Below, one piece after another: positions 15,898-42,037 of a stretch of 51,269 bases of DNA. The first letter of the stretch is position 1. Every line of letters begins with the position of its first letter. The notes beneath the pieces are model-generated. The model was not told the origin of the DNA. It ran no database searches and was given only the letters and a program-made list of their open reading frames with translations. The DNA is from a phage. Position numbers and translations under genes: made by a program. The stretch lies in the sequence record PZ445518.1. The stretch is one strand, 5' to 3'.

Positions 15898-18800
15898 ATG
15901 GCTAAATATATGATAAGCGGCAGTAAGGGCGGAAGCAAAAAGCCATACGTGCCAAAAGAGATGGAAGATAACCTGATCTCGATAAACAAGATTAAAGTTT
16001 TGCTGGCTGTATCTGATGGCGAGTGCGATCCAGATTTCACGTTGCGCGATCTTTATCTTGATGATGTTCCGGTTATTGCCAGCGATGGCACTGTTAACTA
16101 CGAGGGAGTTACGGCTGAATATCGACCAGGTACGCAGACGCAAGATTACATCCAGGGTTTTACTGACACATCAAGTGAGGTGACAGTTGCAAGAGATATT
16201 ACCGGAGACAATCCTTATGTTATTTCTGTTACAAATAAAAATCTATCTGCGGTAAGAATAAAGATCCTGATGCCAGTAGGCATTAAAACAGAGGATAACG
16301 GCGATCTTGTTGGCGTAAGGGTTGAGTATGCCGTAGATATGGCTGTTGATGGCGGTTCTTATAGCGAGGTTATGAGAGATGTAATTGACGGCAAGACAAG
16401 ATCAGGATACGACCGCAGCAGAAGGATTGATCTTCCTAAGTTTGATGAGCGCGTTTTAATCCGAGTAAAGCGACTGACTCCAGACAGCACATCTTCAAAG
16501 GTGACTGATAAAATCAAGCTGCAAAGTTACGCTGAGGTTGTTGATGCAAAATTCCGCTATCCTCTGACTGGACTTGTATTCGTAGAATTTGACAGCGAAT
16601 TGTTTCCTACGCAAATCCCTAACATTTCTATAAAAAAGAAATGGAAGATTATTAATGTGCCAAGCAACTATGATCCAATATCAAGAGAATATCACGGGTC
16701 ATGGGATGGGACTTTTAAAAAAGCGTGGTCAAATAATCCTGCTTGGGTTCTTTATGATCTGGTGACAAATCAGCGTTATGGACTTGATCAGCGAGAGTTA
16801 GGAATACAGATCGACAAGTGGAGCTTATACGAAGCGGGCGTTTACTGCGATCAGAAAGTTCCAGACGGTAAAGGCGGCACTGAGCCTCGCTACCTATGCG
16901 ATGTGGTGATTCAGAATCAAGTTGAGGCTTATCAGCTAATCCGTGACATTTGCTCAATCTTTCGCGGAATGAGTTTTTGGAATGGTGAGAGCTTATCAAT
17001 CGTGATTGATAAGCCGCGCGATCCATCATACGTGTTTACTAATGAAAACGTCATCAACGGTGATTTTCAGTACACAAACGCAAGCGAAAAAAGCATGTAC
17101 ACGCAGTGTAACGTGACGTTTGACGACGAACAAAACATGTATCAGCAGGACGTAGAGGGGGTTTTTGATACTGAGGCTGCATTACGATTTGGATACAATC
17201 CAACAAGCATTACAGCGATCGGTTGTACACGCAGGAGCGAAGCGAATCGTCGCGGTCGGTGGGTTTTGAAAACAAACCTTAGAAGCACTACTGTAAACTT
17301 TGCTACCGGACTAGAGGGGATGATTCCATCAATAGGTGATGTGATTGCTATCGCTGATAATTTTCAGAGCAGCAACCTAACGTTAAACCTATCGGGCCGA
17401 GTGATGGAAGTTTCAGGATTGCAGGTTTTCGTTCCGTTTAAGGTTGATGCTCGTCCTGGTGATTTTATTATCATCAACAAGCCGGACGGAAAGCCAGTTA
17501 AGCGCACGATCTCAAAGGTTAGCGCAGACGGAAAAACCATTGAGTTAAATATTGGATTTGGTTTTGATGTTAAGCCTGATACTGTTTTTGCGATTGACCG
17601 TACTGACCTTGCGTTGCAGCAATACGTTGTGACAACTATCAGCAAGGGTGATGACGAAAACGAGTTTACCTATTCAATCACTGCTGTAGAGTACGATCCG
17701 AACAAATACGACGAGATTGATTATGGAGTAAACATTGATGACAGACCGACTTCAATTGTTCAGCCTGACGTGATGGCAGCGCCTGAGAACGTTAAGATCT
17801 CATCTTATTCTCGCGTCGTGCAGGGTGTTAGCGTTGAGACTATGGTTGTTTCATGGGATAAGGTTCCTTACGCATCGCTTTATGAAATGCAGTGGCGAAA
17901 AGGTGATGGTAACTGGCTGAATACGCCGCAGACCGCTAACAAAGAGATAGAGGTAGAAGGGATTTACTCTGGCAACTACCAAGTAAGGGTGAGATCCGTT
18001 TCTGCAAGCGGTAACGCTTCCCCGTGGTCAAAGATTGCAACCGCCACTCTGACAGGTAAAGTTGGAGAGCCAGGAGCGCCGATTAATCTTACGGCTTCTG
18101 ATAATGAAGTTTTTGGCATTCGTGTCAAATGGGGTATGCCGGAAGGATCAGGCGATACGGCTTACATTGAGCTTCACCAATCGCCAGACGGAACGGTTGA
18201 AAACTCAAGTCTGCTTACGCTGATTCCATATCCTCAATATGAGTATTGGCATAGCACGTTACCAGCGGGGCAAGTTGTATGGTATAGAATCCGCAGCGTT
18301 GACAGAATAGGCAACGTTTCAAGCTGGACTGACTTTGTTCGCGGCATGGCGTCAGATGACGTTGAATCTGTTTTGGGCGACATTCTGGACAAGATTTTTG
18401 ATACAGAAGCTGGTCAAGAAATCAAAGAGAACGCCATAGACAGTGCCAATAAAATCAAAGACCAGGCGCAATCAATCATACAGAACGCGTTGGCAAATGA
18501 TGCAGATGTGAAGTGGACGCGAGTGCAAAACGGAAAGCGCAAGGCTGAATATGGTCATGCTCTTGAGCTTATCGCCAATGAAACAGAAGCGCGCGTAACT
18601 CAAATCGAAGAATTAAGGGCATCAATTGATGGCGAGATAACATCAAGCATCAAGACAGTGCAGGAGGCAATTGCCACTGAATCAGAGACGCGAGCGACTC
18701 AAATTCAGCAGCTTGATTCTAAATTCACAAAAGAAATCGACGGCGTGCGCAAGGATACTTCTGCAAGCATTAGCGATGTAAGGCAGACAATCACTAACGA

Positions 18801-19476
18801 GTCAGAAGCGCGCGCTCAGGCCGTTCAGCAGCTTGACGCTAAGTTCACGAAAGAGATAAACGACCTTGACGGAGTTATCAAAACAGAAGTCGAGGCTAAC
18901 ATCTCAGAAGTGAAACAGGCGATCGCCAATGAGACAGAGGCAAGGGTTCAGGCTGACCAGGCATTAACAGCACGATTTGGCGACGTTGAATCTGCATTGG
19001 TTGAAAAGTTGGATTCTTGGGCGAGCGTTGATTCAGTTGGGGCTAAATACGCTATGAAACTTGGCCTTACTTACAAAGGCCAGCAATACAGCGCAGGAAT
19101 GGTGATGCAGCTTTCGCAGGGTTCATCCGGCCTTATCTCGCAAATTTTGTTTGATGCTAACAGGTTCGCCATTATGACTAGCTCTACTGGAGGGACTTTT
19201 ACTTTGCCTTTCGTGGTTGAGAATAATCAGGTTTTCATTAATAGTCTTTTGGTGAAGAACGGTTCAATCACTAATGCGATGATTGGTAATGTGATTCAGT
19301 CAAACAACTTTGTTCAAAACCAGCAAGGATGGAGGCTTGATAAAAACGGAATCTTTGAGAATTACGGATCAACGCCAGGAGAAGGAGCTACTAAATTCAC
19401 CAATGAGGGATTGAAGGTAAAAGATGCAAACGGAGTATTGAGGGTTGAAGTCGGAAGGATTACCGGAAGCTGGTAA
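15898..19476 (+). CDS. central tail fiber / host specificity protein (lambda J-like)
   Basis: About 1190 aa from ATG 15898; internal ETEAR...QL.AKF repeats near C-terminus; last gene of tail module before bidirectional terminator. Confidence 0.85.
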   Translation: MAKYMISGSKGGSKKPYVPKEMEDNLISINKIKVLLAVSDGECDPDFTLRDLYLDDVPVIASDGTVNYEGVTAEYRPGTQTQDYIQGFTDTSSEVTVARDITGDNPYVISVTNKNLSAVRIKILMPVGIKTEDNGDLVGVRVEYAVDMAVDGGSYSEVMRDVIDGKTRSGYDRSRRIDLPKFDERVLIRVKRLTPDSTSSKVTDKIKLQSYAEVVDAKFRYPLTGLVFVEFDSELFPTQIPNISIKKKWKIINVPSNYDPISREYHGSWDGTFKKAWSNNPAWVLYDLVTNQRYGLDQRELGIQIDKWSLYEAGVYCDQKVPDGKGGTEPRYLCDVVIQNQVEAYQLIRDICSIFRGMSFWNGESLSIVIDKPRDPSYVFTNENVINGDFQYTNASEKSMYTQCNVTFDDEQNMYQQDVEGVFDTEAALRFGYNPTSITAIGCTRRSEANRRGRWVLKTNLRSTTVNFATGLEGMIPSIGDVIAIADNFQSSNLTLNLSGRVMEVSGLQVFVPFKVDARPGDFIIINKPDGKPVKRTISKVSADGKTIELNIGFGFDVKPDTVFAIDRTDLALQQYVVTTISKGDDENEFTYSITAVEYDPNKYDEIDYGVNIDDRPTSIVQPDVMAAPENVKISSYSRVVQGVSVETMVVSWDKVPYASLYEMQWRKGDGNWLNTPQTANKEIEVEGIYSGNYQVRVRSVSASGNASPWSKIATATLTGKVGEPGAPINLTASDNEVFGIRVKWGMPEGSGDTAYIELHQSPDGTVENSSLLTLIPYPQYEYWHSTLPAGQVVWYRIRSVDRIGNVSSWTDFVRGMASDDVESVLGDILDKIFDTEAGQEIKENAIDSANKIKDQAQSIIQNALANDADVKWTRVQNGKRKAEYGHALELIANETEARVTQIEELRASIDGEITSSIKTVQEAIATESETRATQIQQLDSKFTKEIDGVRKDTSASISDVRQTITNESEARAQAVQQLDAKFTKEINDLDGVIKTEVEANISEVKQAIANETEARVQADQALTARFGDVESALVEKLDSWASVDSVGAKYAMKLGLTYKGQQYSAGMVMQLSQGSSGLISQILFDANRFAIMTSSTGGTFTLPFVVENNQVFINSLLVKNGSITNAMIGNVIQSNNFVQNQQGWRLDKNGIFENYGSTPGEGATKFTNEGLKVKDANGVLRVEVGRITGSW

Positions 19477-19504: not shown

Positions 19505-20117
19505 AATCATAGTGTGATGCATTTATAACCAAAACAGATGAAGCGGTGTAAATACCAACAGGTCCAGGAGTTTGTGCAACCTGCCTAGAAAAAGAGTAGA
19601 TCCCGTTACCATACGCGGCAGCTTGAGACTCAAAAATCATGAATCCACCTAAAGCCGGATTAGGAACAGAGTTTAATGCTGTCAGTGATGGCATTATGGC
19701 GCAAGGATAGCCCATGTTAACATCAAATGCGATCCCGCTTACGCCTACTTGCTTTGCATCTAGCGGCCTCATTTTTCCATGATAAACCATTTCACCATGA
19801 GCATTATAAAACGCTATGCCGTGACTACCTGGGGGAGTCACCATATTACTAAAAGCATAAACAATAACCTCACCCTGATTATCAGATCTATCAAGTCTTA
19901 TTGCGTGCCTTCCACCATTGTTAAATTGCGTGAATGATATGTATGATTTAGCGGTCAATCTAACAAAGAAAAAACATACCCTATCAACAGGAATTGACGA
20001 AGTAAAAACGGTTCCGGTATTAGCAGATATTACGGCCCGATCAATTAGATTAACTGGAGTGAAATCTGGACTTAACCATAACGATCCGTCTGATTTTTTT
20101 ATACTCATCCCGTACAT
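19503..20117 (-). CDS. hypothetical protein (third gene of Cor-like cassette)
   Basis: ATG 2 nt after upstream stop; ends at bidirectional terminator. Confidence 0.45.
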   Translation of the reverse strand: MYGMSIKKSDGSLWLSPDFTPVNLIDRAVISANTGTVFTSSIPVDRVCFFFVRLTAKSYISFTQFNNGGRHAIRLDRSDNQGEVIVYAFSNMVTPPGSHGIAFYNAHGEMVYHGKMRPLDAKQVGVSGIAFDVNMGYPCAIMPSLTALNSVPNPALGGFMIFESQAAAYGNGIYSFSRQVAQTPGPVGIYTASSVLVINASHYD

Positions 20118-20119
20118 TA

Positions 20120-20398
20120 TCACCCCCAAAAAGTATATATATATCTTGAATCAGATCCAGAAAGCCCACTCCATGTAACGGTGTCGCCACTTACCCCTAA
20201 GTTTGGTGCGCCAGGGTCGCCACCACGCCAGGAATTCATGCCAACATATATTGCTTTCAATGATTTACCTGGCGGCCTGTTTTGGTAAGTCTTGCTACCT
20301 GATGGCTGAGTGAATTTATCAAGGAAGAAAACAGGCGTTAAAAGACCTGTAACTTCCCTTCCTCGATCGTCATATATTGCATAACCATATTGCGCCAT
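20120..20398 (-). CDS. hypothetical protein
   Basis: 92-aa ORF translationally coupled to the lipoprotein gene. Confidence 0.45.
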   Translation of the reverse strand: MAQYGYAIYDDRGREVTGLLTPVFFLDKFTQPSGSKTYQNRPPGKSLKAIYVGMNSWRGGDPGAPNLGVSGDTVTWSGLSGSDSRYIYTFWG

Positions 20399-20673
20399 TA
20401 ATTACACCTCAAATCAATAAATTTACTTTCATTTTGCCAACGGTTGATAAATTTAACTTCTTTATTGTCAACGCTCAACCTGTATTGCTTTTGGCTGAAT
20501 CTGTTTTCTCGGACTGCATTAATTTTGACTTCATGTAATCCGTTAACAGGGAATGTTTTAACGTTAAATTTTGCCGTGCAATCGATCTCCTTGAAGTTGC
20601 CAGTAGGCGACGCTGCGCATCCTGTCAGAGCGGCTACAGTGGCGATAACTGCGATTAACTTTTTCATCTTCAA
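20398..20673 (-). CDS. outer-membrane lipoprotein, Cor-like superinfection-exclusion candidate
   Basis: Signal peptide plus lipobox LTGC (MKMKKLIAVIATVAALTGC); small size; next to tail genes as for cor in T1/phi80-type phages. Confidence 0.6.
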   Translation of the reverse strand: MKMKKLIAVIATVAALTGCAASPTGNFKEIDCTAKFNVKTFPVNGLHEVKINAVRENRFSQKQYRLSVDNKEVKFINRWQNESKFIDLRCN

Positions 20674-20698
20674 TACTCCTTAGTTGTTGTTGGCTGCA

Positions 20699-20744
20699 AC
20701 TATACACGATCTTGGGCATCGCGTTTAGCAAAAAGTGCTATTTG
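20699..20744 (-). promoter_or_regulatory. conserved-element promoter cassette (-10 TATAGT) for Cor-like operon
   Basis: Reverse complement of GTTTAGCAAAAAGTGCTATTTG, about 20 nt spacer, TATAGT, leader CAACAACAACTAAGGAG. Confidence 0.5.
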
Positions 20745-21110
20745 TTATTTTTTGTTTTCCGGTGTTATCGAATTTAAGACGGCGTAAATTTAGCGCAAAA
20801 TTTAGACAACATAAGATCAATAAACAATCAATAAAATAGATATATACATATAAAATCAATAGTTTATTTATTTATGTATGTATATTTGTTTTTTCTTGTT
20901 ATCTGCGTTTCTTGTGGTTTTGGTTGTTTGTGGTGATTTTTCTTTCTGAGTATCTGTATGTGCCATCATTCATGTGTATGTATATAATCCGGCGTATCTG
21001 AGAGAACAGGGGAACAAGAAAAATAACACACATTAATCATTAACTTATGAGTCAAATCTGTTTTCTTGCCATCTGAGAACGTTTAGAAAACAGAAAAAAC
21101 AAAACAGCTA
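20745..21110. promoter_or_regulatory. AT-rich divergent control region A
   Basis: About 365 bp without ORFs; TATTTATTTATGTATGTATAT and GTATCTGTATGTG word repeats; GGGAACAAGAAAAA..ACACATTAA box shared with region B. Confidence 0.5.
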
Positions 21111-21138
21111 TTGACTAAATCAACCAAATGGCTACAAT
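21111..21138 (+). promoter_or_regulatory. sigma70-type promoter for recombination module
   Basis: TTGACT, 16-nt spacer, TACAAT; about 30 nt upstream of exonuclease ATG. Confidence 0.6.
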
Positions 21139-21168
21139 GCACGCATAAAGCAACAAGGAGCATTAAAG

Positions 21169-22224
21169 ATGAGTGATTTTAACGCCTACACTAGCGAAGA
21201 AATGAGCAACGAGCTTTATCATGATCCTAACGCGTGGACGGCTGAATATGTCAGCGGTTCCAGCCTAGCGGAGATTTACAGCACTTGCCCGGCGTACTGG
21301 AAGTACAAGCCGCGCCAGGAAACTAAAGCACTTGTTTTCGGTACGCAGTCGCATACCAACTTTGAAAGCAAGGAGCTATTCGAAAAAACATATCGCCGCG
21401 CACCGTCGCAGGATGATTTTAAAGACCTGATCACTAGTCAAACGGCGTTAGCATCAAAGCTGAAATCTTTTGGCCTGAAAGGTACGACGGGTAAACAATA
21501 CCCTGAATTACTGGAAATGCTGTACAAGTGCGGCGAGGATCTCAATGTGTGGTGGCTTATCGAAATGATGGCAGAATGCCAGGCCGCAGCGGACGGAGTG
21601 CAGTTAATAGACGCTAAAGATTATGATGCCTGTGTAGCGATGCGGCGCGTACTTGAGGCCATACCGGAGCATAACGCTTGCATGAACAGCCCAACCGCGC
21701 AGCGTGAAATGTCAATATTTGGGATCATCAACGGCGTAAAAGTAAAAGTGCGTCTTGATCACGTTGACGTAAACAAGGATGTAAAGGCAACAATCATTAA
21801 CGGTTACGACGAAAAAGGCAGGCCGATTTATGAAGAAGTCACCTATCCAGAAGCGGTGATTATCACTGACTACAAAACAACGGTTAGCGCAAATCCGGTT
21901 GACTTCCAGCGCCTGGCTTACAATCACGGCTATTATCTTAAAATGGCTTTGCAACATGACTTATTCAAAAAGGCTTATCCAGACGAGGAAAGGCCAGTAA
22001 TTGTAAGATTGCTTGCGCAGGAGAAGAAAGAGCCTTACTTGCCGCTTGCTTTCCGCATGAATATTGAGCAATTGAAGATCGGGCGCATCCAGTACATGAG
22101 CGTGATCAACAAGTTCAACGTTTGCCAGCAGTTAGACGAATGGCCTTCGTATGCAAACGGGCAACCGGAAATTGATCTTGATACTCCTGATTGGGTTCGT
22201 GCTCAATTCAGGCATTATCTTTGA
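21169..22224 (+). CDS. PD-(D/E)XK family recombination exonuclease
   Basis: 351 aa; D...D/E-x-K arrangement (VRLDHVDV ... IITDYKTT); first gene of recombination module. Confidence 0.65.
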   Translation: MSDFNAYTSEEMSNELYHDPNAWTAEYVSGSSLAEIYSTCPAYWKYKPRQETKALVFGTQSHTNFESKELFEKTYRRAPSQDDFKDLITSQTALASKLKSFGLKGTTGKQYPELLEMLYKCGEDLNVWWLIEMMAECQAAADGVQLIDAKDYDACVAMRRVLEAIPEHNACMNSPTAQREMSIFGIINGVKVKVRLDHVDVNKDVKATIINGYDEKGRPIYEEVTYPEAVIITDYKTTVSANPVDFQRLAYNHGYYLKMALQHDLFKKAYPDEERPVIVRLLAQEKKEPYLPLAFRMNIEQLKIGRIQYMSVINKFNVCQQLDEWPSYANGQPEIDLDTPDWVRAQFRHYL

Positions 22225-22299
22225 TAAACTAAACAAATAGCTAAACTTTTATAATGGTTGGTGATATAATTCGCCAACCAGATAACGGGAGAATGAGGA

Positions 22300-22557
22300 A
22301 TGACAGACAAAGACAATGCCACATTATTGCATTTAGAACGATTCATTGATCGAGTAACCATTGCAATGAAAGAATTTATTAAGCCGATGAACATTAAAGA
22401 GTCGGAAGAAATGAAGACTTACATCAAGGACGTGGTTGCATCCATTGACAACGTTATCCTTGTTGCAACGATGAGCAAGGGAAACAAAGAGCGCGAGAGG
22501 TTGGTTGCTGAATCAACAGAAGAATTTATTAAAATGCTTGAAAGCGAGAAGGAATAA
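22300..22557 (+). CDS. hypothetical protein
   Basis: 85-aa ORF between exonuclease and annealing protein. Confidence 0.45.
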   Translation: MTDKDNATLLHLERFIDRVTIAMKEFIKPMNIKESEEMKTYIKDVVASIDNVILVATMSKGNKERERLVAESTEEFIKMLESEKE

Positions 22558-24708: not shown

Positions 24709-26663
24709 TATACAATTTCCCCCAATTGATGATCTGTTAGTGCCTTGTGCCATATACGGAAGTTTCTAACGTGCCCGAAAAGATGACGTTCGCCCGTAGT
24801 TGTTTGTCCGCCAATCCTTATAGTAGCCGTTGATACTATATATCTCCATTCCGTTTTTGTTTCGCTTGATATTCTGGCATTACTTACACAACAAGTATTG
24901 TAATCACTCTTTACTCTCATTCCTATGATCATCTTTTTTAGTTTCGCATTCTCGTTAACCCTTCTGTTTGATTTACCTATATCGCAATAAGGGAATCCAT
25001 CACTATCGCCCTTGGCAGATCCGAAAGCAAGAATAATTTCCGCACCAGATTGATGACCTCCAGAACCAAAAACACGAGGCGCAGCACTTGGCGTCATACT
25101 CCAGTTTTTATGAGCTTCCACAAGCACTGTAAACGGCAAATTGTAAAGGTTGTTTTTTATTGGCAATGTAACCATATCGCTTGCCCTTGTTGTCGGACTT
25201 TCATTAGTTATAATGAATGATGAAGCGCAAGATCCAACCTCTACTTGAGGAGTTGTTAAATCCATAAAGCTATTTTCATCAAAAACTTCTCCTTGTTTAT
25301 TAACGACCTGTATTACCCCCCTAATGGAAGTTGATTCATCAGTAACTTTGTAAACTATTTCTGCAAAAATCCATTCCCCGTCTATGGTAGCGTTCTTTAG
25401 CACTATGTTTTTTGCGTCAACTCCAGAAGTTGCCACCCCTAAGTTATCGCAATCAATAATAGCAGAAGCAACAGAAGATAAAGGATCTCCCTTGTCAAAT
25501 CTTGCTGCAAATCTTACATTTTTCCCCTTAGCCCTAAAAGATATTGTAACTCCATCACCCTTTACAACTGCAATATTATTTGTAGTAAGTCCAGCTATAA
25601 TAGTGTAAGAGCCTACGCCACCTAAATATTTCCCTGGTTTAAATGTTGCATACTTAAACCCCCTTTCATCAGTCTTAGTTTCACCTCTTTCTAATCCTGT
25701 ATTTGGATTCCATGATTCAGGCTTATTTGAATTTACAAAATAGTTTGTTCTCTGCCCTTCAATCAAAAGACCATCCTTTTCAAATCTAGGTTCATCAATA
25801 GCAGCATCAGTAAGCAACCCAGACTTATTAATGTAAGTAGCGGTTGATGCACGTTTAAACTTAACAATCTTGTCACCTGGCATCGTGATCTCATCATCAC
25901 CTATGACAATCTTTTTGTATGACGGCGAGAATCCGGTGATCATATCCAGGGAATCATTAAATGGTATCCACACGTCAGGTAGAGGCTGCAATAAATCTTT
26001 GTAAGGTTCTGCGGCCTGTTTTGCGTATTCCTCCGCTTGATCTCGCGCACTTTCAGCGCCTGCCTTTGCGGTGTTCGCAGCATCACGCGCAGTTTCAGCG
26101 CCTTTTCTTGCAGTTTCAGCGCCAGTCTTTGCAGTGTTTGCAGCGTCGCGCGCGGATTCAGCGGCAGCCTTTGCAGTGTCAGCACCTTTCTTGCTATTCT
26201 CTGCATTTGTTGCGCTTGTCTTTGCGTTATTCTCGCTAGTTTTAGCTGCCTTCTGGCTTGCTGCGGCTGCGTCAGCATTTGTCTTTACGTCTTCCTGGAT
26301 CTTCTGTAGCTTATCCCAATCAAAATCCTTGATGATCTCAATAAATCCAGCAAGCTCCGACTCCTTTCCCTGGTAATAACGCAACGTTTCCGCTACGTCT
26401 TGCGCAAGACCGTCAACCGTTAACGAGTCATGAAGCAAGATCAGGTAATTTGTCTTCTGTACTACCGCGCCGCCAGTAGTAATTGCGCGAATGCTTGTAT
26501 CGCTAATCACTTCTGTAATCACAGCAGCTTGCAAAGGTTGAGCAAGAAAGAAAATAGTTGCGCCTGGGCGAATCAAGGTTAATTGCTCACGCCATTTTGT
26601 ACCGTAACCAGTTACATAACCTTGCGCGTCCATAGACGCTTGGCCTTGTCTGTAAATCGCCAT
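24708..26663 (-). CDS. tail fiber protein
   Basis: ATG at 26663 after AGGAGG; Ala-rich repeats (SARDAANTAK); C-terminal lectin/LamG-like region. Confidence 0.7.
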   Translation of the reverse strand: MAIYRQGQASMDAQGYVTGYGTKWREQLTLIRPGATIFFLAQPLQAAVITEVISDTSIRAITTGGAVVQKTNYLILLHDSLTVDGLAQDVAETLRYYQGKESELAGFIEIIKDFDWDKLQKIQEDVKTNADAAAASQKAAKTSENNAKTSATNAENSKKGADTAKAAAESARDAANTAKTGAETARKGAETARDAANTAKAGAESARDQAEEYAKQAAEPYKDLLQPLPDVWIPFNDSLDMITGFSPSYKKIVIGDDEITMPGDKIVKFKRASTATYINKSGLLTDAAIDEPRFEKDGLLIEGQRTNYFVNSNKPESWNPNTGLERGETKTDERGFKYATFKPGKYLGGVGSYTIIAGLTTNNIAVVKGDGVTISFRAKGKNVRFAARFDKGDPLSSVASAIIDCDNLGVATSGVDAKNIVLKNATIDGEWIFAEIVYKVTDESTSIRGVIQVVNKQGEVFDENSFMDLTTPQVEVGSCASSFIITNESPTTRASDMVTLPIKNNLYNLPFTVLVEAHKNWSMTPSAAPRVFGSGGHQSGAEIILAFGSAKGDSDGFPYCDIGKSNRRVNENAKLKKMIIGMRVKSDYNTCCVSNARISSETKTEWRYIVSTATIRIGGQTTTGERHLFGHVRNFRIWHKALTDHQLGEIV

Positions 26664-26769: not shown

Positions 26770-27699
26770 TTATAGCAGTGATTCGGGCTTGTAGAGTTTT
26801 CTTTCTACTCCCTGTTTAAAATTATCGTTAACAGGCATCATTATGTCAAGTCCTCTTTCCTCTGCCGCGATTATCACATCACGATCATCTTTCCGGCAGA
26901 CTACGCGCATTCTTCTTTCTCCTTTATATCTATGCGCAACCATTTCAAGATTTGAAGGAGTAAAACAGGCCCACACCTCTTGACCAGTTGATAAATGAAC
27001 ATGCTGAGAATCAACCCAATCAAGGCACAAATAGATCGTCTTATCTGTACTACCTGTTTTAACAACAGATCCGCGCGTGTAGTCGCGAGCTAAAAACCAA
27101 TCCTTTCCATCCTCATCAATGAAAAGCACGTTACACATTTCATCATCCAGCCCGTCATCATGCACCAGGTGACAAGGTAGCGCGTGAATGTATCGACCAT
27201 CCTTGACGCCGCAATCATAATGACAATCTTCCGGCGGATATATCCCCTCATAAACGCTTAAAGGTGTGCGATCGAATTTTAATGTTTTTGCCATCACTTT
27301 TTCGCAACATTCATGACTTGCCTGTTTCCCGAACGAGTAACCAGAAGAACGCGAAGCGCGTTTGTTTGCTCTGATCCTGTAATCTTGTGGCACTTTTCCG
27401 AGGAAGCGGCCCAAAATGTTGATGGCCTCGCTGTAAGGTTCGCCAGTTAATTTCATTAACCAACCGATCCCCGTGTCGTTGCCGCACACGTTGCAGATCG
27501 CGCCGCCGTCGCCCTCTTCATTTAGCTTATCAGTCCATCTAAAACGATCCTTACCGCCGCAGTGTGGGCAAGGTTGATGCTTTTTGTTGAAAACATCGCT
27601 ATGCAGTCCGCAAATGCTTTGTAGTGCTTCACGCCATAACCCCTTCATATATGGCAAAACATCTTCTTTCTGATAGGTCATAAAGTTTTCAGTATTCAT
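26770..27699 (-). CDS. DNA primase (zinc-ribbon type)
   Basis: CPHCGG...CNVCG zinc ribbon near N-terminus; ATG at 27699 just downstream of terminator hairpin. Confidence 0.65.
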   Translation of the reverse strand: MNTENFMTYQKEDVLPYMKGLWREALQSICGLHSDVFNKKHQPCPHCGGKDRFRWTDKLNEEGDGGAICNVCGNDTGIGWLMKLTGEPYSEAINILGRFLGKVPQDYRIRANKRASRSSGYSFGKQASHECCEKVMAKTLKFDRTPLSVYEGIYPPEDCHYDCGVKDGRYIHALPCHLVHDDGLDDEMCNVLFIDEDGKDWFLARDYTRGSVVKTGSTDKTIYLCLDWVDSQHVHLSTGQEVWACFTPSNLEMVAHRYKGERRMRVVCRKDDRDVIIAAEERGLDIMMPVNDNFKQGVERKLYKPESLL

Positions 27700-27709
27700 G
27701 GCAAACCTC

Positions 27710-27747
27710 AATAAAAAAGCCCAGCAAATATTATCATTTCGCTGGGC
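27710..27747 (-). terminator. terminator/attenuator hairpin between HTH gene and primase
   Basis: Minus strand: GCCCAGC..GCTGGGC followed by TTTTTTATT, immediately upstream of primase RBS. Confidence 0.55.
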
Positions 27748-27754
27748 CTTATCA

Positions 27755-28231
27755 TTAGCTATTCGTGCTGTTATCACCTTTGTAGAATCGTCCGCCTGGT
27801 TCGTAGTCTGAATTTTTGACTACGCGCAACATATCGTATTTGTCGCAACGGGTAGTAAGAGGCTTACCGTTAGAATCAAACCGCAGATCTGGACGACAAA
27901 ATGATGCGCGGTATCCTTTGCATCCATTATATTTGTAGTCGTTATGCACCTTTTGTGCTCCAGCGGCTGAAATCATACCACGCTTTCGCCACTGGTTAAC
28001 GACTTGCTGAGATACGCGCAGACGTCGAGCCATAGCAGGAACGCCGCCGTAATACTCGATCAGAATGTCAAGGCGAGATTTCAGGCTTGCTTTTACCTCA
28101 TCTCGCAGGATAAGAAATCCGGTTCGGTGTTTTCGTGGTTTTTTGTCTTTACCTCGTCGCGTTCCGTTGTTACCGTTAATAGTGCGCTTGTCGATCTCAC
28201 CCGTAGATACTGCAATTCGTGCATCTTTCAT
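27755..28231 (-). CDS. HTH DNA-binding protein (putative transcriptional regulator)
   Basis: Helix-turn-helix-like segment GGVPAMARRLRVSQQVVNQWRKRG; first gene of leftward operon from divergent region. Confidence 0.5.
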   Translation of the reverse strand: MKDARIAVSTGEIDKRTINGNNGTRRGKDKKPRKHRTGFLILRDEVKASLKSRLDILIEYYGGVPAMARRLRVSQQVVNQWRKRGMISAAGAQKVHNDYKYNGCKGYRASFCRPDLRFDSNGKPLTTRCDKYDMLRVVKNSDYEPGGRFYKGDNSTNS

Positions 28232-28241
28232 CTAGTCACCT

Positions 28242-28286
28242 CATAGCATTTTTTGTTAAAACAGTTTATTGTAATGAGTCTATTAT
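28242..28286 (+). promoter_or_regulatory. conserved-element promoter cassette (-10 TATTAT) upstream of helicase
   Basis: CATAGCATTTTTTGTTAAAAC, 19 nt, TATTAT. Confidence 0.5.
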
Positions 28287-28318
28287 ATACTCCAAATGGC
28301 ATTTTTTAAAGGTTTAAG

Positions 28319-35255: not shown

Positions 35256-35577
35256 CGCCCATCTCCCCTATTCTAGCCATATCCCTGATCCAGTCGTTGC
35301 GCATACCATCCAGGCTATACAATTCGAATCCGAAAGGCCGCTTTGACGATCCTTTGGACCAGTATTTTCCGCAGACTCCATCTATATAACCAGCCGTCAT
35401 CATTCTTGCGCAAAATTCCTTAGATGCAAGGCTGGCGAACATTCGCGGCGTAAGTCCGGCGGCCCGTGCGAGCCGCTCACATTCTCTATGCTGATAGATA
35501 AATTTGGCTATGTGCTGCCTGTTAAACCAATCGTATGACTCACACCATTTATACAGATCAAGCAAAAACATAATCAT
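35182..35577 (-). CDS. hypothetical protein
   Basis: 131-aa ORF; start overlaps upstream gene stop. Confidence 0.45.
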   Translation of the reverse strand: MIMFLLDLYKWCESYDWFNRQHIAKFIYQHRECERLARAAGLTPRMFASLASKEFCARMMTAGYIDGVCGKYWSKGSSKRPFGFELYSLDGMRNDWIRDMARIGEMGDDELFQAKANRQDLEALRRKFNIT

Positions 35578-37154
35578 CCCAGCAGTATTGGATTGACAAA
35601 AATAACACCATTAATCACACAAACATAATTTCTTTCTTCCAGCATTGGCAGTAAGTGCCCTTCTATCCTTTTCATTACGCCAGCCTGACCAACGAAAGGT
35701 TTTACCTTTCTCGCTGATTCGTACAGGGCGCGGATATTCAGAATACCTTTATTAGCCTTGCCGTGCCTCGTGATCAATTCAATCAATTTACCCATTTCAG
35801 CATCATCACCAGCATAACCAGAAGCATTGGCGGCGCTAATGTATGTTTTGCTCAATTCCTGAAACATGATCAACGCCTCTTGCATTGTTTCCACGTCGAT
35901 CTCTTTCGACTTCTGCGGGTATCCGGCAGGATTAAACCAGTTACGGATAACATGCAGGACGGAAGCAAGCCTGATCACCTGTTTATCCATTTTACCCAGC
36001 GCACCGCGTAACATTGTATGAGAATACTTTCCTCCGTCTGCAAGATGCGGTTCCATATCCTGGCGAGCAATGTTGAGCACTCGCATAGCTGAACGGCTTA
36101 TTTTCAGCGATATATTTGATTCGCTCATGATGTTATGCACCAATTGATAATATTGGGCTTTCAATTCAGAATCCACCGCCTCATAGGTAGAATCACCATT
36201 TTCATCAATGAATGAGCGACGGCCTAAGAATGATTCCTCTCGGACCAACAAAAAACGCTCACTAACACCGATGCCTCGCGATCCAGCGTCCATGATTCCG
36301 CTTATCGTTTCATCCTGGGCTATGACGCTCATACATCCAAGCGCGCGAAAACTCATATTATTGTCAGCATTAGCACGGGCAATTGATACGTGACCATTAT
36401 CCCACGCCTTAAGCACTAACTCACTGTTAGTCTTCCTTTCGCTATTTGCATAGGTCAAGCCTAACAGACTGTTAATACTTGTTGCTTCATCAGATATTAC
36501 GGCAAAGTTACCTTGCTTGTTGTTGATTTTCGCCAAGCCTTCTGGAGTTGTATCTGAAACAGGAAAAGTTATATCACACATTTTTTCCAGCTTTTCCTCC
36601 AGATCCTCTTTTTCCTGGTATAGAGATTCCATATCAGCGCCGGATCTTTCGCTTTTCATCTCCTTTGCAAGACCTGCCAGCTTTGCCTGTATTTTCTTTC
36701 TTTCCTTGCGGCGTTGCTCGTTGATCTTCTCAACTTCCGCAATCATCGGAGCAATAGCCATGCTGTTGATCGCAGATTTACCAGTTGACGGCGGCTGGCT
36801 TGTAACGACGTAAAGCGCAGTCGGCTGATCGGTTCCGTGATAGTCAACCGTAAAGCGTCCAAGCATAGCGGCAGAAATGCAGCCGATAAAGTGCATGTAA
36901 GCCGATGATTCAGGGAATTGAACGGATCGCGCAATGCTGCGTGATAACTTGCCGACAACATCAATATCATTACCAAGAGAAATAACGGGGTAGCGATCGT
37001 GACCGCTATTCACATCCTTTACGTCGCCCCAAAAGCTGGACGACTGGCGATAGCCGTTAGCCTGAATTGATACGCGAACTGGCGAAAGGTTCTGGCTTTC
37101 AGCCATAGCGATTATTTGTTGTGGAGTTAATTTGTTCGTTTCTAATGAAAACAT
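35574..37154 (-). CDS. P-loop NTPase, DUF3987 / primase-C-terminal-like replication protein (putative)
   Basis: 526 aa; Walker A-like PPSTGKS; size and placement among replication genes. Confidence 0.5.
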   Translation of the reverse strand: MFSLETNKLTPQQIIAMAESQNLSPVRVSIQANGYRQSSSFWGDVKDVNSGHDRYPVISLGNDIDVVGKLSRSIARSVQFPESSAYMHFIGCISAAMLGRFTVDYHGTDQPTALYVVTSQPPSTGKSAINSMAIAPMIAEVEKINEQRRKERKKIQAKLAGLAKEMKSERSGADMESLYQEKEDLEEKLEKMCDITFPVSDTTPEGLAKINNKQGNFAVISDEATSINSLLGLTYANSERKTNSELVLKAWDNGHVSIARANADNNMSFRALGCMSVIAQDETISGIMDAGSRGIGVSERFLLVREESFLGRRSFIDENGDSTYEAVDSELKAQYYQLVHNIMSESNISLKISRSAMRVLNIARQDMEPHLADGGKYSHTMLRGALGKMDKQVIRLASVLHVIRNWFNPAGYPQKSKEIDVETMQEALIMFQELSKTYISAANASGYAGDDAEMGKLIELITRHGKANKGILNIRALYESARKVKPFVGQAGVMKRIEGHLLPMLEERNYVCVINGVIFVNPILLG

Positions 37155-41396: not shown

Positions 41397-41444
41397 AATG
41401 TACCCGATCAGGCGGCCTGAGTTTTAACAAAAAGTGCTATTTGA
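41397..41444 (-). promoter_or_regulatory. conserved-element promoter cassette (-10 TACATT) for leftward early operon
   Basis: Minus strand: AAATAGCACTTTTTGTTAAAAC, 19 nt, TACATT, leader CATCGAAACGAAC. Confidence 0.5.
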
Positions 41445-41979
41445 CGGTTAGCACCAGGATTGTGATCGAAATAATCAAAAGTAATCATTCGTAATCAAAT
41501 CACGTCAAAATGATGATTGCATTTGCAAATTTGATGAGAAAAGTAATCACGTTTAATCATTGGTTGCAGGGGAGATAGTGAAACCTTCCCCTCTTGCCTC
41601 ACTTTCCCGCCTGGCTGTCAGTGGTTGTTATGTTCCGTTCCCGCCTGTTCTTTTGTTGACCTTCCGCAAAATACGATAACAAAAAATAACAAACAATACC
41701 TATATAATACATTGAAAAATAAGGATTATTTATTTATATGTATCTATATATTATCTTTTGTTATCTTGGTTATTGTGGTATTTGGTGGGGGTATATAGTT
41801 TTTGTGTATCTATATGTGTGTATGGGTATGTAGGGGCATATATATCTATATGGCACTTTCCGCGAGAAAACTTCGATAACAGCCAATGATAACATTGATT
41901 TATAAGGAAAAATAACGCCAATATTGTTATTGTGCCACCATATAAAATTGATAAAACACGCGGGAACAAGAAAAAACAG
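41445..41979. promoter_or_regulatory. AT-rich divergent control region B (candidate operator/origin region)
   Basis: About 535 bp without ORFs; GTAATCA x3, palindrome ATTTGCAAAT, TTCCCGCCTG x2, TATGT/GTATCTATAT word repeats, GGGAACAAGAAAAA box. Confidence 0.5.
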
Positions 41980-42008
41980 TTGACACATTAAATAGCATTA
42001 TTGATAAT
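41980..42008 (+). promoter_or_regulatory. sigma70-type promoter for rightward early operon
   Basis: TTGACA, 17-nt spacer, GATAAT; about 30 nt upstream of ATG 42038. Confidence 0.6.
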
Positions 42009-42037
42009 GCCGACACCTAACAACCAGGAGGTAGAAA

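What the first reader, a model, noticed from the sequence alone, without database searches (positions are those of the whole stretch)
20745..21110. AT-rich divergent control region A shares repeat vocabulary with region B about 21 kb away
About 365 bp without ORFs separate the leftward Cor-like operon from the rightward recombination module. It carries short AT-rich word repeats (TATTTATTTATGTATGTATAT; GTATCTGTATGTG...CATGTGTATGTATATAAT) and the box GGGGAACAAGAAAAATAACACACATTAA (21009-21036). The same GGGAACAAGAAAAA...ACACATTAA box occurs at 41961-41994 in region B, where it overlaps the -35 of the rightward early promoter. These may be binding sites for a common regulator or structural elements of a replication origin.
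Basis: seen in the sequence. Interest (0 to 1): 0.5.

Follow-up and report, generated by a model that had tools for sequence, protein, structure and literature searches.

The report
Paired iteron and AT-rich modules, T1-like phage
The two largest non-coding stretches of this T1-like phage genome are related copies of one conserved control module, made of short phased repeats around the most easily melted DNA of the genome and ending in a strong early promoter, and it is the best candidate so far for the unknown replication origin or early-gene control site of the T1 family.

Summary
The window is a complete Warwickvirus genome (T1-like, Drexlerviridae). The box sits at 21010-21036 and 41962-91, where it abuts the -35 of TTGACA-17-GATAAT. 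But the box is only one word array of a larger feature. Regions A and B are collinear paralogues over about 350-400 bp (local alignment 78 against 22.7±2.7 in shuffles). Both have the same order of parts. T-oriented and A-oriented AACA-type words spaced roughly 5-15 bp alternate around a dyad-symmetric TATA block, and each region ends in a near-consensus sigma-70 promoter. The two TATA blocks are the two least stable duplex segments of the genome.

The same A/B pairing occurs in all six phages compared, from three subfamilies (including T1, TLS, Rtp). The words are lineage-specific. Similarity of A to B within a genome persists where A-to-A similarity between subfamilies has decayed, so the copies evolve in concert.

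My best reading (about 0.4) is a pair of origin-like iteron/unwinding modules bound by a phage protein and coupled to early promoters. The main rival (about 0.33) is a purely transcriptional upstream control region. Sequence alone cannot separate them. The promoters and the neighbouring 21-nt repeat are published for TLS. I found no published description of the paired module.

The parts
20698..20743 (-). Leftward promoter-like unit for the Cor-like operon. It consists of a copy of the family-wide 21-nt repeat (AAATAGCACTTTTTGCTAAAC) followed by TATAGT about 22 nt downstream. It forms the left border of module A.
   Evidence: The repeat is described for TLS in PMC11447400.
20742..20770 (+). Array T1 of T-oriented words (TGTT at 20753 and 20763; TGTTATC). 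Read on the minus strand, it is an A-word array directly upstream of the leftward promoter.
   Evidence: The block is conserved in the Tempevirinae alignment. In haarsle, the matching array of region B (the record's region B, not its region A) is four CTGTTATC-type words 10-11 bp apart.
20778..20804 (.). GC clamp 1 (GACGGCGTAAAT) with the abutting inverted repeat TAAATTTAGC/GCAAAATTTA.
   Evidence: GGCG(T/C)AAAT is conserved. A similar clamp recurs at 20989.
20805..20836 (+). Array A1 of A-oriented words (AACA at 20808 and 20823).
20823..20900 (.). Dyad-symmetric TATA block. Two 33-nt arms are 73% complementary around 20856-20867. It contains the least stable 60-bp duplex of the genome (20827-20886) and an IHF-consensus-like site, AATCAATAGTTTA, at 20854-20866.
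   Evidence: for the inverted repeat. for stability (dG -57.7 against a genome mean of -81.8, sd 5.1). The IHF match was read by eye against WATCAANNNNTTR recalled from memory. It is conserved in only part of the relatives.
20885..20948 (+). Array T2, the T/G-rich run (61% T and 11% A over 20864-20962), with TGTT at 20887, 20897 and 20925. Positions 20890-20900 (TTTTTCTTGTT) are the perfect complement of the box core.
20950..20988 (+). Second TATA block (GTATCTGTATGTG...TATGTATATAAT). It includes a weak promoter-like match, GTGCCA-17-TATAAT.
   Evidence: The number of promoter-like matches in the region is no higher than in shuffles.
20989..20996 (.). GC clamp 2 (CCGGCGTA).
21002..21036 (+). 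It holds three A-oriented words, GAGAACAG / GGGAACAAG / AAATAACAC (AACA at 21005, 21013 and 21025).
   Evidence: It is conserved across Tempevirinae as GTGAACA..GAACA.AAAA.AACA. Tuinin region B has GTTAACAGCGTGAACAGAAAAATAACAG at the equivalent place.
21035..21047 (+). Second IHF-consensus-like site (AATCATTAACTTA, one mismatch). Several relatives have a perfect match here.
   Evidence: The consensus is from memory. No binding test was done.
21057..21107 (.). T3/A3: a perfect 10-bp inverted repeat, TCTGTTTTCT (21057-21066) and AGAAAACAGA (21085-21094), followed by the A-word array 21085-21107 in the UP-element position of the promoter.
   Evidence: TTTTGTT and AACA.AAAA.AACA are conserved.
21111..21138 (+). 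Rightward sigma-70 promoter of the recE-erf-ssb operon, TTGACT-16-TACAAT.
   Evidence: A TTGAC[AT]-N15-18-TA[ACT]AAT pattern lies 56-62 nt before recE in 37 of the 43 related loci. It is equivalent to the promoter predicted in silico as P51 in TLS.
41416..41442 (-). 21-nt repeat copy. It is the leftward promoter-like unit at the left border of region B.
41450..41566 (.). pac-like block, specific to region B. It holds five GTAATCA/TAATCA words plus GATTG/TGATGA words. It ends where the T1 record begins (GTTGCA...).
   Evidence: The T1, TLS and Rtp records all start in the equivalent block. The TLS pac site was mapped there by restriction analysis. The XY3 and haarsle records start at the equivalent of about 41567-41578.
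41622..41671 (+). Array T1 of module B (TGTT at 41626, 41631, 41646 and 41654), followed by the GC clamp TTCCGCAAAA.
41675..41708 (+). Array A1 of module B. The words ATAACA, ATAACA and ATACC lie 10 bp apart (GATAACAAAAAATAACAAACAATACC). They are followed by an orphan CCTATATAAT, which has a -10 hexamer but no -35.
   Evidence: TATAAT is present at this place in region B of all five phages checked there (window, Tuinin, TLS, T1, Rtp) and in some region A copies.
41700..41791 (.). Dyad centre and array T2 of module B. It includes the second least stable 60-bp duplex of the genome (41700-41759). The 15-nt inverted repeat GATAACAAAAAATAA / TTATCTTTTGTTATC (93% complementary) brackets it.
   Evidence: (dG -58.2).
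41792..41866 (+). Second TATA block of B (TATCTATAT repeats, with GGGGG and GGGG punctuation), followed by GC clamp 2 (TTTCCGCGAG).
41874..41936 (+). Array A2 of B (GATAACA at 41875 and 41888), which is the positional equivalent of the box in A, and array T3 (ATTGTTATTGTGCC at 41923-41936).
41962..42008 (+).
   Evidence: It is equivalent to the promoter predicted in silico as P01 in TLS.
27755..28231 (-). Candidate trans-acting factor: a Cro/YdaS-like helix-turn-helix protein of 158 aa. Its gene is the first of the primase operon.
   Evidence: Pfam YdaS_toxin and P22_Cro match below the curated cut-off, and PHROG 2856 matches at 3e-72. PDB Cro-type proteins match at E 6e-4 to 6e-3. The recognition helix varies between lineages. 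A homologue is the first gene beside the analogous module in the distant phage L053. Binding is inferred, not shown.
35574..37154 (-). DUF3987 replicative helicase (MCM-like SF6 AAA+ fold with a C-terminal winged helix). It is the probable helicase loaded at the origin, and it lies in the leftward operon that starts at region B.
26770..27777 (-). Primase, homologous to the primase domain of P4 alpha.
   Evidence: Zn_Ribbon_Prim at 4.8e-15. BLASTP to P4 alpha residues 20-263 gives E 1.6e-15.

Best explanation
Regions A (about 20742-21138) and B (about 41622-42008) are two paralogous copies of one conserved cis-acting module of Drexlerviridae. Each copy has arrays of short AACA-type words, spaced roughly 5-15 bp (about 10 bp in the clearest arrays), in alternating orientation. 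The arrays flank a dyad-symmetric TATA block, which is the most easily melted DNA of the genome. Each copy ends in one of the genome's three near-consensus sigma-70 promoters.

I propose that the words are binding sites (iterons) for a phage-encoded sequence-specific protein. The most likely binder is the Cro/YdaS-like HTH protein encoded at the head of the primase operon. I propose that the resulting nucleoprotein complex opens the TATA block so that the MCM-like DUF3987 helicase and the P4-type primase can be loaded. Opening would be helped by the negative supercoiling generated between the flanking outward-reading promoters, and perhaps by IHF. On this reading A and B are a pair of origin-like sites, comparable to P4 ori/crr or SPP1 oriL/oriR, physically coupled to early transcription.

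What is shown:
- the paralogy and its conservation
- the concerted evolution of the two copies
- the word arrangement
- the duplex instability
- the promoters, by consensus match and conservation only

What is inferred:
- that a protein binds, and which one
- that unwinding occurs
- that either site has origin activity
- whether both copies fire, or one acts as an enhancer
For: 1. A and B are collinear homologues and not chance AT-rich matches.
2. The same A/B pairing exists in Tuinin, haarsle, TLS, T1 and Rtp, which covers three subfamilies.
3. The copies evolve in concert. T1 A against T1 B scores 66 and Rtp A against Rtp B scores 141, while A of T1 or Rtp against A of any other phage scores 24-49, mostly within the range reached by shuffles (means 22-30, maxima up to 59).
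4. The enriched words are lineage-specific and are shared by A and B of the same phage. T1 TGTAACA occurs 6 times in A+B and 0 times elsewhere. Window GATAACA occurs 6 times against 9 elsewhere in 50 kb.
5. AACA and TGTT words are strictly segregated into the same T|A|T|A|T|A order in both regions, with neighbours mostly 5-15 bp apart. In haarsle region B, four CTGTTATC-type words are 10-11 bp apart.
6. The two least stable 60-bp duplex windows of the genome are the homologous TATA blocks, each about 4.7 sd from the mean. Inverted word arrays bracket them.
7. Distant phages that share only the DUF3987 helicase (36-39% identity) carry an analogous intergenic module directly upstream of their replication operon. 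It has words in both orientations around AT-rich or repeat DNA. In L053 the first gene beside the module is a homologue of the window's HTH protein.
8. The replisome genes are of the kind used by mobile elements whose origins carry iterons. The primase is homologous to P4 alpha and the helicase is MCM-like SF6. The annotated P4 type-1 iteron TGTTCACC (= GGTGAACA), tandem at 10-11 bp in ori and crr, resembles GTGAACAG in TLS and Tuinin.
9. The third sigma-70 promoter (region C, 28231-28319) works without any such module or words. The module is therefore not a general accessory of these promoters.
10. The only paper I found that addresses it, the 2024 TLS reannotation, reports finding no origin-type repeats.
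Against: - No experiment bears on origin activity or on protein binding.
- Every module copy examined ends in a promoter, and A-word arrays sit exactly where UP elements or activator sites would sit (21085-21107, 41962-41979, and 20742-20770 for the leftward promoter). A purely transcriptional role explains much of the anatomy.
- The words are short and degenerate in the window (NNAACA).
- No homologue of the P4 alpha origin-binding domain was found.
- The helicase winged helix has an acidic recognition helix and is a poor DNA-binding candidate.
- Neither module adjoins the helicase, primase or HTH genes in T1-like genomes.
- GC skew follows gene orientation and gives no information on an origin.
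- IHF-like sites are not conserved in region B.
- Concerted evolution could come from gene conversion by the phage's own RecE/Erf system without any shared binding protein.
Confidence: 0.4

Rival explanations
1. The modules are purely transcriptional upstream control regions. A and B are duplicated early-promoter regions. The A-word arrays act as UP elements or as sites for a phage regulator (for example the Cro-like HTH, by analogy with lambda OL/OR). The IHF sites bend the DNA. The AT-rich block acts as a supercoil-sensitive upstream activating sequence or as a cluster of weak tandem promoters. The two copies stay alike because they answer to the same regulator.
For: - Both modules end in near-consensus sigma-70 promoters that are conserved family-wide and predicted in silico for TLS as P01 and P51.
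- A-rich word arrays lie at about -40 to -60 of P_A, directly abut the -35 of P_B, and directly precede the leftward 21-nt-repeat promoter.
- Each module looks like three tandem units of word array plus -10-like element. The box in A, with its downstream sequence, aligns with the B promoter as if it were a decayed promoter copy.
- An orphan TATAAT is conserved in region B of all five phages checked there.
- IHF-consensus-like sites lie between the arrays and the promoter.
- A Cro-like HTH gene is present.
Against: - Consensus promoters need no activator, and a repressor would be expected over the core promoter. Here about six arrays are spread over 350 bp upstream.
- The third sigma-70 promoter has no module and no words.
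- In T1 and Rtp the words are not A-tracts (ATTACGCC, GTGTAACAG, GTTACGC), so an alpha-CTD/UP-element reading fails there.
- The orphan -10 is not conserved in region A of the window, L008, L013 or Rtp.
- The number of promoter-like matches in A and B is no higher than in shuffles.
- This reading does not explain why the centre is the extreme minimum of duplex stability in the genome.
Confidence: 0.33
2. The similarity is a by-product of recombination and has no shared function. A and B are AT-rich spacers between operons that are repeatedly homogenised or exchanged by the phage RecE/Erf system, or swapped between co-infecting relatives. Only the terminal promoters are functional.
For: - Region B is a mosaic junction. 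In most close relatives whose region A is 94% or more identical to the window's, only 41440-41790 of region B aligns, at about 82%, and the rest does not align.
- The phage encodes RecE, Erf and SSB immediately downstream of A.
- Rtp A and B are about 85% identical over 124 nt, as expected after a recent conversion.
Against: - The architecture (order and orientation of arrays, clamps and TATA centre) is conserved across three subfamilies and in distant DUF3987 phages, although the sequence has turned over.
- Blocks within the module are conserved far above their surroundings.
- In a tightly packed 51-kb genome these are the two largest non-coding regions.
Confidence: 0.12
3. The modules serve packaging or another structural role. 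They would be part of pac recognition, with A acting as a secondary pac-like site, or they would be targets or decoys for host nucleoid proteins such as H-NS, Fis or IHF.
For: - Module B lies about 50 bp from the pac-like block, and the T1, TLS and Rtp records start there.
- One database record (BEC3) is linearised inside the TATA block of A.
- AT-rich DNA of this kind is a typical H-NS target (general knowledge).
Against: - The pac-like word set (GTAATCA, GATTG) is confined to 41450-41566. Region A has only one TTAATCATT.
- Lineage-specific words argue against host proteins, since T1, TLS and this phage all infect E. coli.
- A record start inside A may simply be an assembly artefact.
Confidence: 0.08
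4. The regions encode small non-coding RNAs or micro-proteins.
For: - Some GenBank records annotate 30-45 aa ORFs in both regions.
- An orphan -10 element is followed by a strongly strand-asymmetric (U/G-rich) stretch.
Against: - No Rfam match reaches a gathering score. The E-value matches are chance-level eukaryotic snoRNA and Plasmodium RNase P families.
- No terminator-like site was found.
- The ORFs are 44 aa or shorter and of low complexity. The Tempevirinae alignment is full of indels (I did not check ORF frames).
Confidence: 0.04

Closest known systems
Phage P4 ori and crr (two separated cis-acting replication regions bound by the alpha protein)
   Same: - Both systems have two distant non-coding regions that share short iterons in both orientations, tandem at about 10-11 bp, next to AT-rich DNA.
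- The P4 type-1 iteron TGTTCACC (= GGTGAACA; NC_001609 annotation) resembles GTGAACAG in TLS and Tuinin.
- The window's primase is homologous to the alpha primase domain (E 1.6e-15).
   Different: - No homologue of the alpha origin-binding domain was found.
- The helicase is DUF3987/SF6 and shows no BLAST similarity to alpha.
- In the window itself the words are GATAACA and GGAACA, not GTGAACA.
- The modules are 21 kb apart (my subtraction of the window coordinates), against about 4.8 kb in P4 (coordinates).
- Each module carries a strong promoter and a long TATA block.
- Function is untested here.
Bacillus phage SPP1 oriL/oriR (two distant regions bound by the replisome organiser G38P; recalled from memory, Missich et al. 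1997)
   Same: A lytic pac-type siphovirus has two discrete, distant regions that share repeated boxes next to AT-rich DNA.
   Different: - SPP1 oriL lies inside the initiator gene.
- There is no sequence or protein homology.
- I did not check this comparison with the tools.
Lambda OL/OR (two operator clusters for CI/Cro at the divergent early promoters; textbook knowledge)
   Same: - Two promoter regions kilobases apart share a repeat vocabulary recognised by one HTH regulator.
- A Cro-like HTH protein is encoded here.
   Different: - Lambda operators are 17-bp palindromes that overlap the core promoters.
- Here the words are short and mostly non-palindromic, and about six arrays are spread over 350 bp upstream around an unwinding-prone centre.
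- The third sigma-70 promoter has no such words.
Promoter-plus-unwinding-element origins of lytic phages (T4 oriF/ori(uvsY), T7 primary origin; recalled from memory)
   Same: A -10 element, or a full promoter, is directly followed by the least stable DNA of the region. In B the least stable window starts at the orphan CTATATAAT.
   Different: - Those origins have no iteron arrays.
- The orphan -10 is not conserved in every region A copy.
- An RNA read rightward would be U/G-rich, which is unfavourable for a stable R-loop.
The 21-nt intergenic repeat and the predicted sigma-70 promoters of TLS (German et al. 2024, PMC11447400)
   Same: - The flanking elements of both regions are those published there: promoters P01 and P51, predicted in silico, and the repeat aaATAGCACnnnTTGnTAAAA.
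- That repeat occurs 18 times in this window.
   Different: - The passages and the supplementary table I read (keyword passages, Table S1) do not describe the paralogous AT-rich module.
- The paper states that no origin-type repeats were found in the genome.

Membership tests
Iteron-type replication origin | Several copies of a short repeat, in helical phase, clustered in a non-coding region | tested here: met
   AACA/TGTT words form six segregated arrays per region, with neighbours mostly 5-15 bp apart. GATAACA is enriched (6 in A+B against 9 elsewhere), as is T1 TGTAACA (6 against 0). In haarsle region B, four CTGTTATC-type words are 10-11 bp apart. The words are short and degenerate, so this rests on sequence only.
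Iteron-type replication origin | Adjacent AT-rich DNA unwinding element | tested here: met
   The two least stable 60-bp windows of the genome are 20827-20886 and 41700-41759 (dG -57.7 and -58.2; genome mean -81.8, sd 5.1; the next is -65.6). This is a nearest-neighbour calculation and not a superhelical-stress model.
Iteron-type replication origin | A cognate initiator protein binds the iterons | not testable with these tools
   The candidates are the HTH protein 27755-28231 and, less likely, the helicase winged helix. There are no binding data.
Iteron-type replication origin | Replication starts there, or the region confers replication in cis | not testable with these tools
   GC skew only follows gene orientation. 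No literature on origin mapping in T1-like phages was found.
P4 ori/crr system | Two separate cis regions that share the same iteron | tested here: met
P4 ori/crr system | Iteron TGTTCACC-type octamer | tested here: inconclusive
   GTGAACA(G) occurs in the TLS and Tuinin modules. GTGAACA is absent from the window, and neither of the two TGTTCAC copies lies in A or B. The window has GAGAACA, GGGAACA and GATAACA.
P4 ori/crr system | Alpha-type multifunctional protein with a C-terminal origin-binding domain | tested here: not met
Sigma-70 promoter with UP-like upstream element | -35 and -10 hexamers with 16-18 bp spacing | tested here: met
   TTGACT-16-TACAAT at 21111-21138 and TTGACA-17-GATAAT at 41980-42008. 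The pattern is found in 37 of 43 related loci.
Sigma-70 promoter with UP-like upstream element | A/T-rich tract at about -40 to -60 | tested here: met
   AGAAAACAGAAAAAACAAAACAG at 21085-21107 and GGGAACAAGAAAAAACAG at 41962-41979. The feature is not met in T1, where the equivalent words are ATTACAC and ATTACAT.
Dual operator sets for a Cro-like repressor (lambda OL/OR type) | Palindromic operators that overlap both core promoters | tested here: not met
   No shared palindrome overlaps both cores. The words lie mostly upstream and are directional. Only the box in B abuts the -35.
pac site of T1-like phages | Position at the mapped genome terminus, with the terminus-proximal word set | tested here: not met
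   The pac-like block is 41450-41566, outside the A-like module and absent from region A. It belongs to region B only.
Known RNA families (Rfam 15) | Match at the gathering score | tested here: not met

The most novel reading that the evidence does not exclude
T1-like phages would initiate replication at a two-site origin system. A Cro/YdaS-like HTH protein would act as initiator. It would bind lineage-specific iterons arranged as inverted arrays around an unwinding element, and load an MCM-like (SF6, DUF3987) helicase. The two copies (A next to the recombination genes, B next to pac) would co-evolve with the initiator and cooperate as ori and enhancer, as in P4 ori/crr. This would be the first origin defined for the T1 family, and a bacterial-virus example of origin-specific loading of an MCM-like helicase.
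Probability: 0.22. Interest if true: 0.65.

Novelty: new member of a known kind. Interest (0 to 1): 0.5.

Why it matters
T1 is one of the seven classic T phages, and its relatives are common in phage collections and as laboratory and fermentation contaminants. The one paper I found that addresses the origin, the 2024 reannotation of TLS, reports no origin-type repeats. It also leaves the intergenic signals as open questions.

The conserved, concertedly evolving module pair gives two precise, clonable 350-400-bp targets and a short list of candidate binding proteins. The origin question and the early-regulation question therefore become directly testable.

If the modules are origins for an MCM-like helicase, they would also be a simple bacterial model for origin-specific loading of that helicase class. 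If they are only promoter-upstream regions, the finding is of modest, family-specific interest.

Tried and rejected
- Rfam, at gathering scores on the whole window and at E-value thresholds on both regions, gave nothing credible.
- GC and AT skew turn at 23.6, 28.2, 34.8 and 41.5 kb, which are gene-strand switches. They are useless for locating an origin.
- A curvature prediction with my own Bolshoy-Trifonov wedge implementation gave mean values for A and B equal to the genome mean. The single highest peak of the genome (32 degrees, at 20796) is not clearly above other peaks (31, 29...). Curvature is therefore not the distinguishing property.
- I searched for a P4 alpha origin-binding-domain homologue by BLASTP, tblastn and a PDB phmmer search and found none.
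- The helicase C-terminal winged helix was tested as the iteron binder. The fold is confirmed, but the recognition helix is acidic and only generic winged-helix matches appear, so I downgraded it.
- The A/B words were sought at the third sigma-70 promoter region (28231-28319) and are absent.
- A possible shared spacer motif, AAAT(A/G)GC, links the sigma-70 promoters and the 21-nt repeat. The short motif is too frequent (52 hits, many from AAAATGGCT start regions) to support a claim. Only the AAATAGCAT in the P_B spacer is a close match.
- Using the first rightward gene of region B to fetch region B homologues from IMG/VR returned only 2 loci, because that gene is variable. I fetched whole GenBank records in its place.
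- Literature searches for T1 pac, origin and transcriptome data found nothing beyond the TLS paper. The Rtp genome paper is not held.
Full report
**What the window is.** The 51,269-bp window is a complete genome of a T1-like siphovirus (Drexlerviridae, Tempevirinae, Warwickvirus). Positions 20000-22500 are 100% identical to Shigella phage JK16 and more than 99% identical to about 20 other coliphages. The annotation of the near-identical phage Tuinin gives the gene context. Region A lies between a leftward three-gene membrane/lipoprotein (Cor-like) operon, which ends at 20673, and the rightward recE-erf-ssb operon, which starts at 21169. Region B lies between the leftward operon that contains the DUF3987 helicase (start of the last gene at 41361) and the first rightward early gene (42038).

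**Check of the observation.**
- GGGAACAAGAAAAA occurs only at 21010 and 41962.
- ACACATTAA follows at 21028 and 41983.
- In B the box runs into TTGACA-17-GATAAT (41980-42008, 11/12 matches).
- Region A has TTGACT-16-TACAAT at 21111-21138, 100 bp downstream of its box.
- No ORF above 44 aa exists in region A.

The similarity is not a composition effect.
- The best local alignment of A and B scores 78, against 22.7±2.7 for dinucleotide shuffles and 30.2±5.3 for shuffles that keep composition in 30-bp blocks.
- B is the best partner of A anywhere in the genome.
- The regions share 19 exact 9-mers, against 2.4±2.0 expected (0 of 1000 dinucleotide shuffles and 2 of 1000 block shuffles reach this).
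- The shared words are collinear.

**Anatomy.** The box is one element of a larger, ordered module. The same order of parts appears in both regions:
1. an array of T-oriented words (TGTT...)
2. a short GC clamp (CCGGCG or TCCGCG)
3. an array of A-oriented words (...AACA), mostly 10-15 bp apart
4. a TATA-rich centre with dyad symmetry
5. a long T/G-rich array of T-oriented words
6. a second TATA block and clamp
8. a short T array
9. a promoter-proximal A array
10. the sigma-70 promoter

AACA and TGTT occurrences are completely segregated into the same T|A|T|A|T|A pattern in A and in B. In A a 33-nt imperfect inverted repeat is centred on 20856-20867. The box core AACAAGAAAAA is the exact complement of 20890-20900. 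TCTGTTTTCT and AGAAAACAGA form a perfect 10-bp inverted repeat just upstream of the promoter. In B, GATAACAAAAAATAA and TTATCTTTTGTTATC bracket the centre. By order of parts, the box in B corresponds to the promoter-proximal array of A, not to the box of A. The 14-mer identity reflects membership in one word family.

**Physical properties.** With nearest-neighbour energies, the two least stable 60-bp windows in the genome are the homologous centres 20827-20886 (-57.7 kcal/mol) and 41700-41759 (-58.2). The genome mean is -81.8 (sd 5.1) and the next window is -65.6. Predicted intrinsic curvature, from my own wedge-model code, is not distinctive.

**Conservation.** I took 43 loci from IMG/VR that hold recE relatives at 57-100% identity.
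- In 37 of them the pattern TTGAC[AT]-N15-18-TA[ACT]AAT lies 56-62 nt before recE.
- Within Tempevirinae the module aligns along its whole length. The conserved blocks coincide with the arrays, the clamps, the IHF-consensus-like sites and the promoter.

I then read both regions in Tuinin, haarsle, TLS, T1 and Rtp. All have an A-like module in both places. This includes TLS, where region A is not divergent.

The enriched words differ by lineage but are shared by the two regions of one phage (and for Rtp):
- window: GATAACA (6 in A+B, 9 elsewhere)
- T1: TGTAACA (6 in A+B, 0 elsewhere), plus ATTACGCC
- TLS: GTGAACA and TGGAACA
- Rtp: GTTACGC and GTTACAC

A and B within a genome score well above shuffles in all six phages:

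| Phage | A-B score |
|---|---|
| window | 78 |
| Tuinin | 88 |
| haarsle | 49 |
| TLS | 63 |
| T1 | 66 |
| Rtp | 141 |

In contrast, A of T1 or Rtp against A of any other phage scores 24-49, mostly within the range reached by shuffles. The two copies therefore evolve in concert. The cause is either a shared phage-encoded binding protein or gene conversion.

**What is already known.** The 2024 TLS reannotation (PMC11447400) lists exactly three sigma-70 promoters, predicted in silico. P01 is the region B promoter, P51 is the region A promoter, and P57 is the promoter of the HTH/primase operon. The paper also describes the 21-nt repeat aaATAGCACnnnTTGnTAAAA, whose function it calls an open question. 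It maps pac by restriction analysis to the record start, and it says no origin-type repeats were found. The T1, TLS and Rtp records all begin inside the left part of region B. The equivalent in the window is a separate block (41450-41566) with its own words (GTAATCA, GATTG). That block is absent from region A. So region B consists of a leftward promoter, the pac block and the A-like module. The module itself is not pac.

**Candidate trans factors.** The replication genes are as follows.
- The primase is homologous to the P4 alpha primase domain (E 1.6e-15).
- The DUF3987 helicase gives a confident model (pLDDT 87). Its best fold matches are MCM subunits, and its C-terminal domain is a winged helix. 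This agrees with the published assignment of DUF3987 to SF6 (PMC4889955). A DUF3987-family protein has been shown experimentally to be a helicase (PMC11724360).
- A Cro/YdaS-like HTH protein is encoded at the head of the primase operon.

The helicase winged helix has an acidic recognition helix, so I consider it an unlikely iteron reader. The recognition helix of the HTH protein varies between lineages.

In distant phages that share only the helicase (36-39% identity), an analogous module lies directly upstream of the replication operon. It has words in both orientations (GGGGG/CCCCC in L053, TGTAAG/CTTACA in L054 and L055) around TATA-rich or simple-repeat DNA, and in L054 it ends in TTGACT-17-TATTAT. 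In L053 the first gene next to the module is a homologue of the window's HTH protein (E 3e-4). P4 ori and crr, checked from the annotated record, carry GGTGAACAG iterons in tandem at 10-11 bp. This resembles the GTGAACAG words of TLS and Tuinin. No homologue of the alpha origin-binding domain was found.

**Interpretation.** These points are established by the sequence analysis:
- The module is a conserved, duplicated cis-acting element.
- It evolves in concert.
- It is built of iteron-like words around the most meltable DNA of the genome.
- It is tied to the early promoters.

The function is inferred. I favour (about 0.4) a pair of origin-like sites. The reasons are:
- inverted iteron arrays flank an extreme unwinding element
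- analogous modules are associated with replication operons in distant relatives
- the third sigma-70 promoter has no such module
- the words in T1 and Rtp are not A-tracts
- no other origin candidate exists in the genome

Outward transcription from the flanking promoters would feed negative supercoils into the centre.

The main rival (about 0.33) is a purely transcriptional upstream region. The reasons are:
- every copy ends in a promoter
- A-word arrays sit in UP or activator positions
- the module looks like three tandem units of array plus -10 element
- an orphan TATAAT is conserved in region B

The two readings are not mutually exclusive. T4 and T7 origins are promoter-based (from memory). 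Less likely readings are recombinational homogenisation without function, packaging or nucleoid-protein roles, and small RNAs or peptides.

**Verdict.** The flanking promoters and the 21-nt repeat are published for TLS. I found no published description of the paralogous module pair, its concerted evolution or its instability. Whatever it does, it is most likely a new member of a known kind (an iteron/unwinding-element origin or an upstream regulatory region). Its interest is moderate, because it makes the unresolved origin and early regulation of the T1 family directly testable.

Noticed in passing
window 1564, 6209(-), 9963(-), 20741(-), 26681, 28243, 30732, 31803, 35064(-), 37226(-), 38218(-), 40135(-), 41440(-), 42768, 44562, 46012, 47332, 48647: There are 18 copies of the 21-nt repeat AAATAGCACTTTTTGTTAAAAC, which is known from TLS with unknown function. 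In most copies a -10-like hexamer (CATAAT, TATAAT, TATAGT, TAAAAT) lies 21-23 nt after TTGTTA. That is too far for TTGTTA to serve as a canonical -35. The hexamer often sits inside a GC-rich hairpin. This looks like an activator-dependent promoter class.
   Followed up: partly
window 6209(-), 9963(-), 26681(+): Three copies of the 21-nt repeat point against the local genes. They are antisense to the gene upstream of the major head gene, to the major tail gene, and to the primase gene. They may drive antisense transcripts. TLS also lists one such copy on the opposite strand (DR7).
   Followed up: no
window 41450-41570: This is a pac-like block with five GTAATCA/TAATCA words plus GATTG/TGATGA words. 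It ends at GTTGCA (41567), which matches the first bases of the T1 record. The TLS, Rtp, XY3 and haarsle records start at the equivalent place. It is the probable terminase recognition and cleavage region.
   Followed up: partly
window 41790-42037 compared with L001 42000-42260: Region B is a mosaic junction. In most close relatives whose region A is 94% or more identical to the window's, only 41440-41790 of region B aligns, at about 82%. The promoter-proximal half and the first early gene (DUF7174) are replaced by unrelated sequence that has the same architecture.
   Followed up: partly
window 35574-37154 (-): The DUF3987 helicase models confidently (pLDDT 87) as an MCM-like AAA+ protein with a C-terminal winged helix. 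The recognition helix of that winged helix is acidic, which suggests a role in protein contacts more than in DNA reading.
   Followed up: yes
window 27755-28231 (-): The Cro/YdaS-like HTH protein has a basic N-terminal segment (STGEIDKRTINGNNGTRRGKDKKPR) that is almost unchanged between the window, TLS and T1, and partly conserved in Rtp, where its first residues are missing. A shorter homologue lacking that segment heads the replication operon of a distant 78-kb phage contig (L053).
   Followed up: partly
window 21126-21132, 28294-28300, 41990-41998: The spacers of all three sigma-70 promoters contain CCAAATGGC or TTAAATAGCAT. This resembles the conserved AAATAGCA start of the 21-nt repeat, and in the third promoter it is inverted. 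The short motif is too frequent genome-wide to be significant on its own.
   Followed up: partly
window 18571-18946 and 26040-26186: There are in-frame tandem repeats inside tail genes. Units of about 99-132 nt occur in the J-like tail tip gene, and 21/42-nt units occur in the side tail fibre gene.
   Followed up: no
L053 9230-9620; L054 9290-9720; L055 1-200: Distant DUF3987-helicase phages carry intergenic modules upstream of their replication operons with their own word sets (GGGGG/CCCCC; TGTAAG/CTTACA). These surround TATA-rich DNA or long (AAC)n or (TAA)n microsatellites.
   Followed up: partly
one search hit list: Eighteen records named 'Campylobacter phage' (for example A143 and A113, unannotated) match this E. 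coli phage family at about 72% across region A. The host assignment of those records looks doubtful.
   Followed up: no
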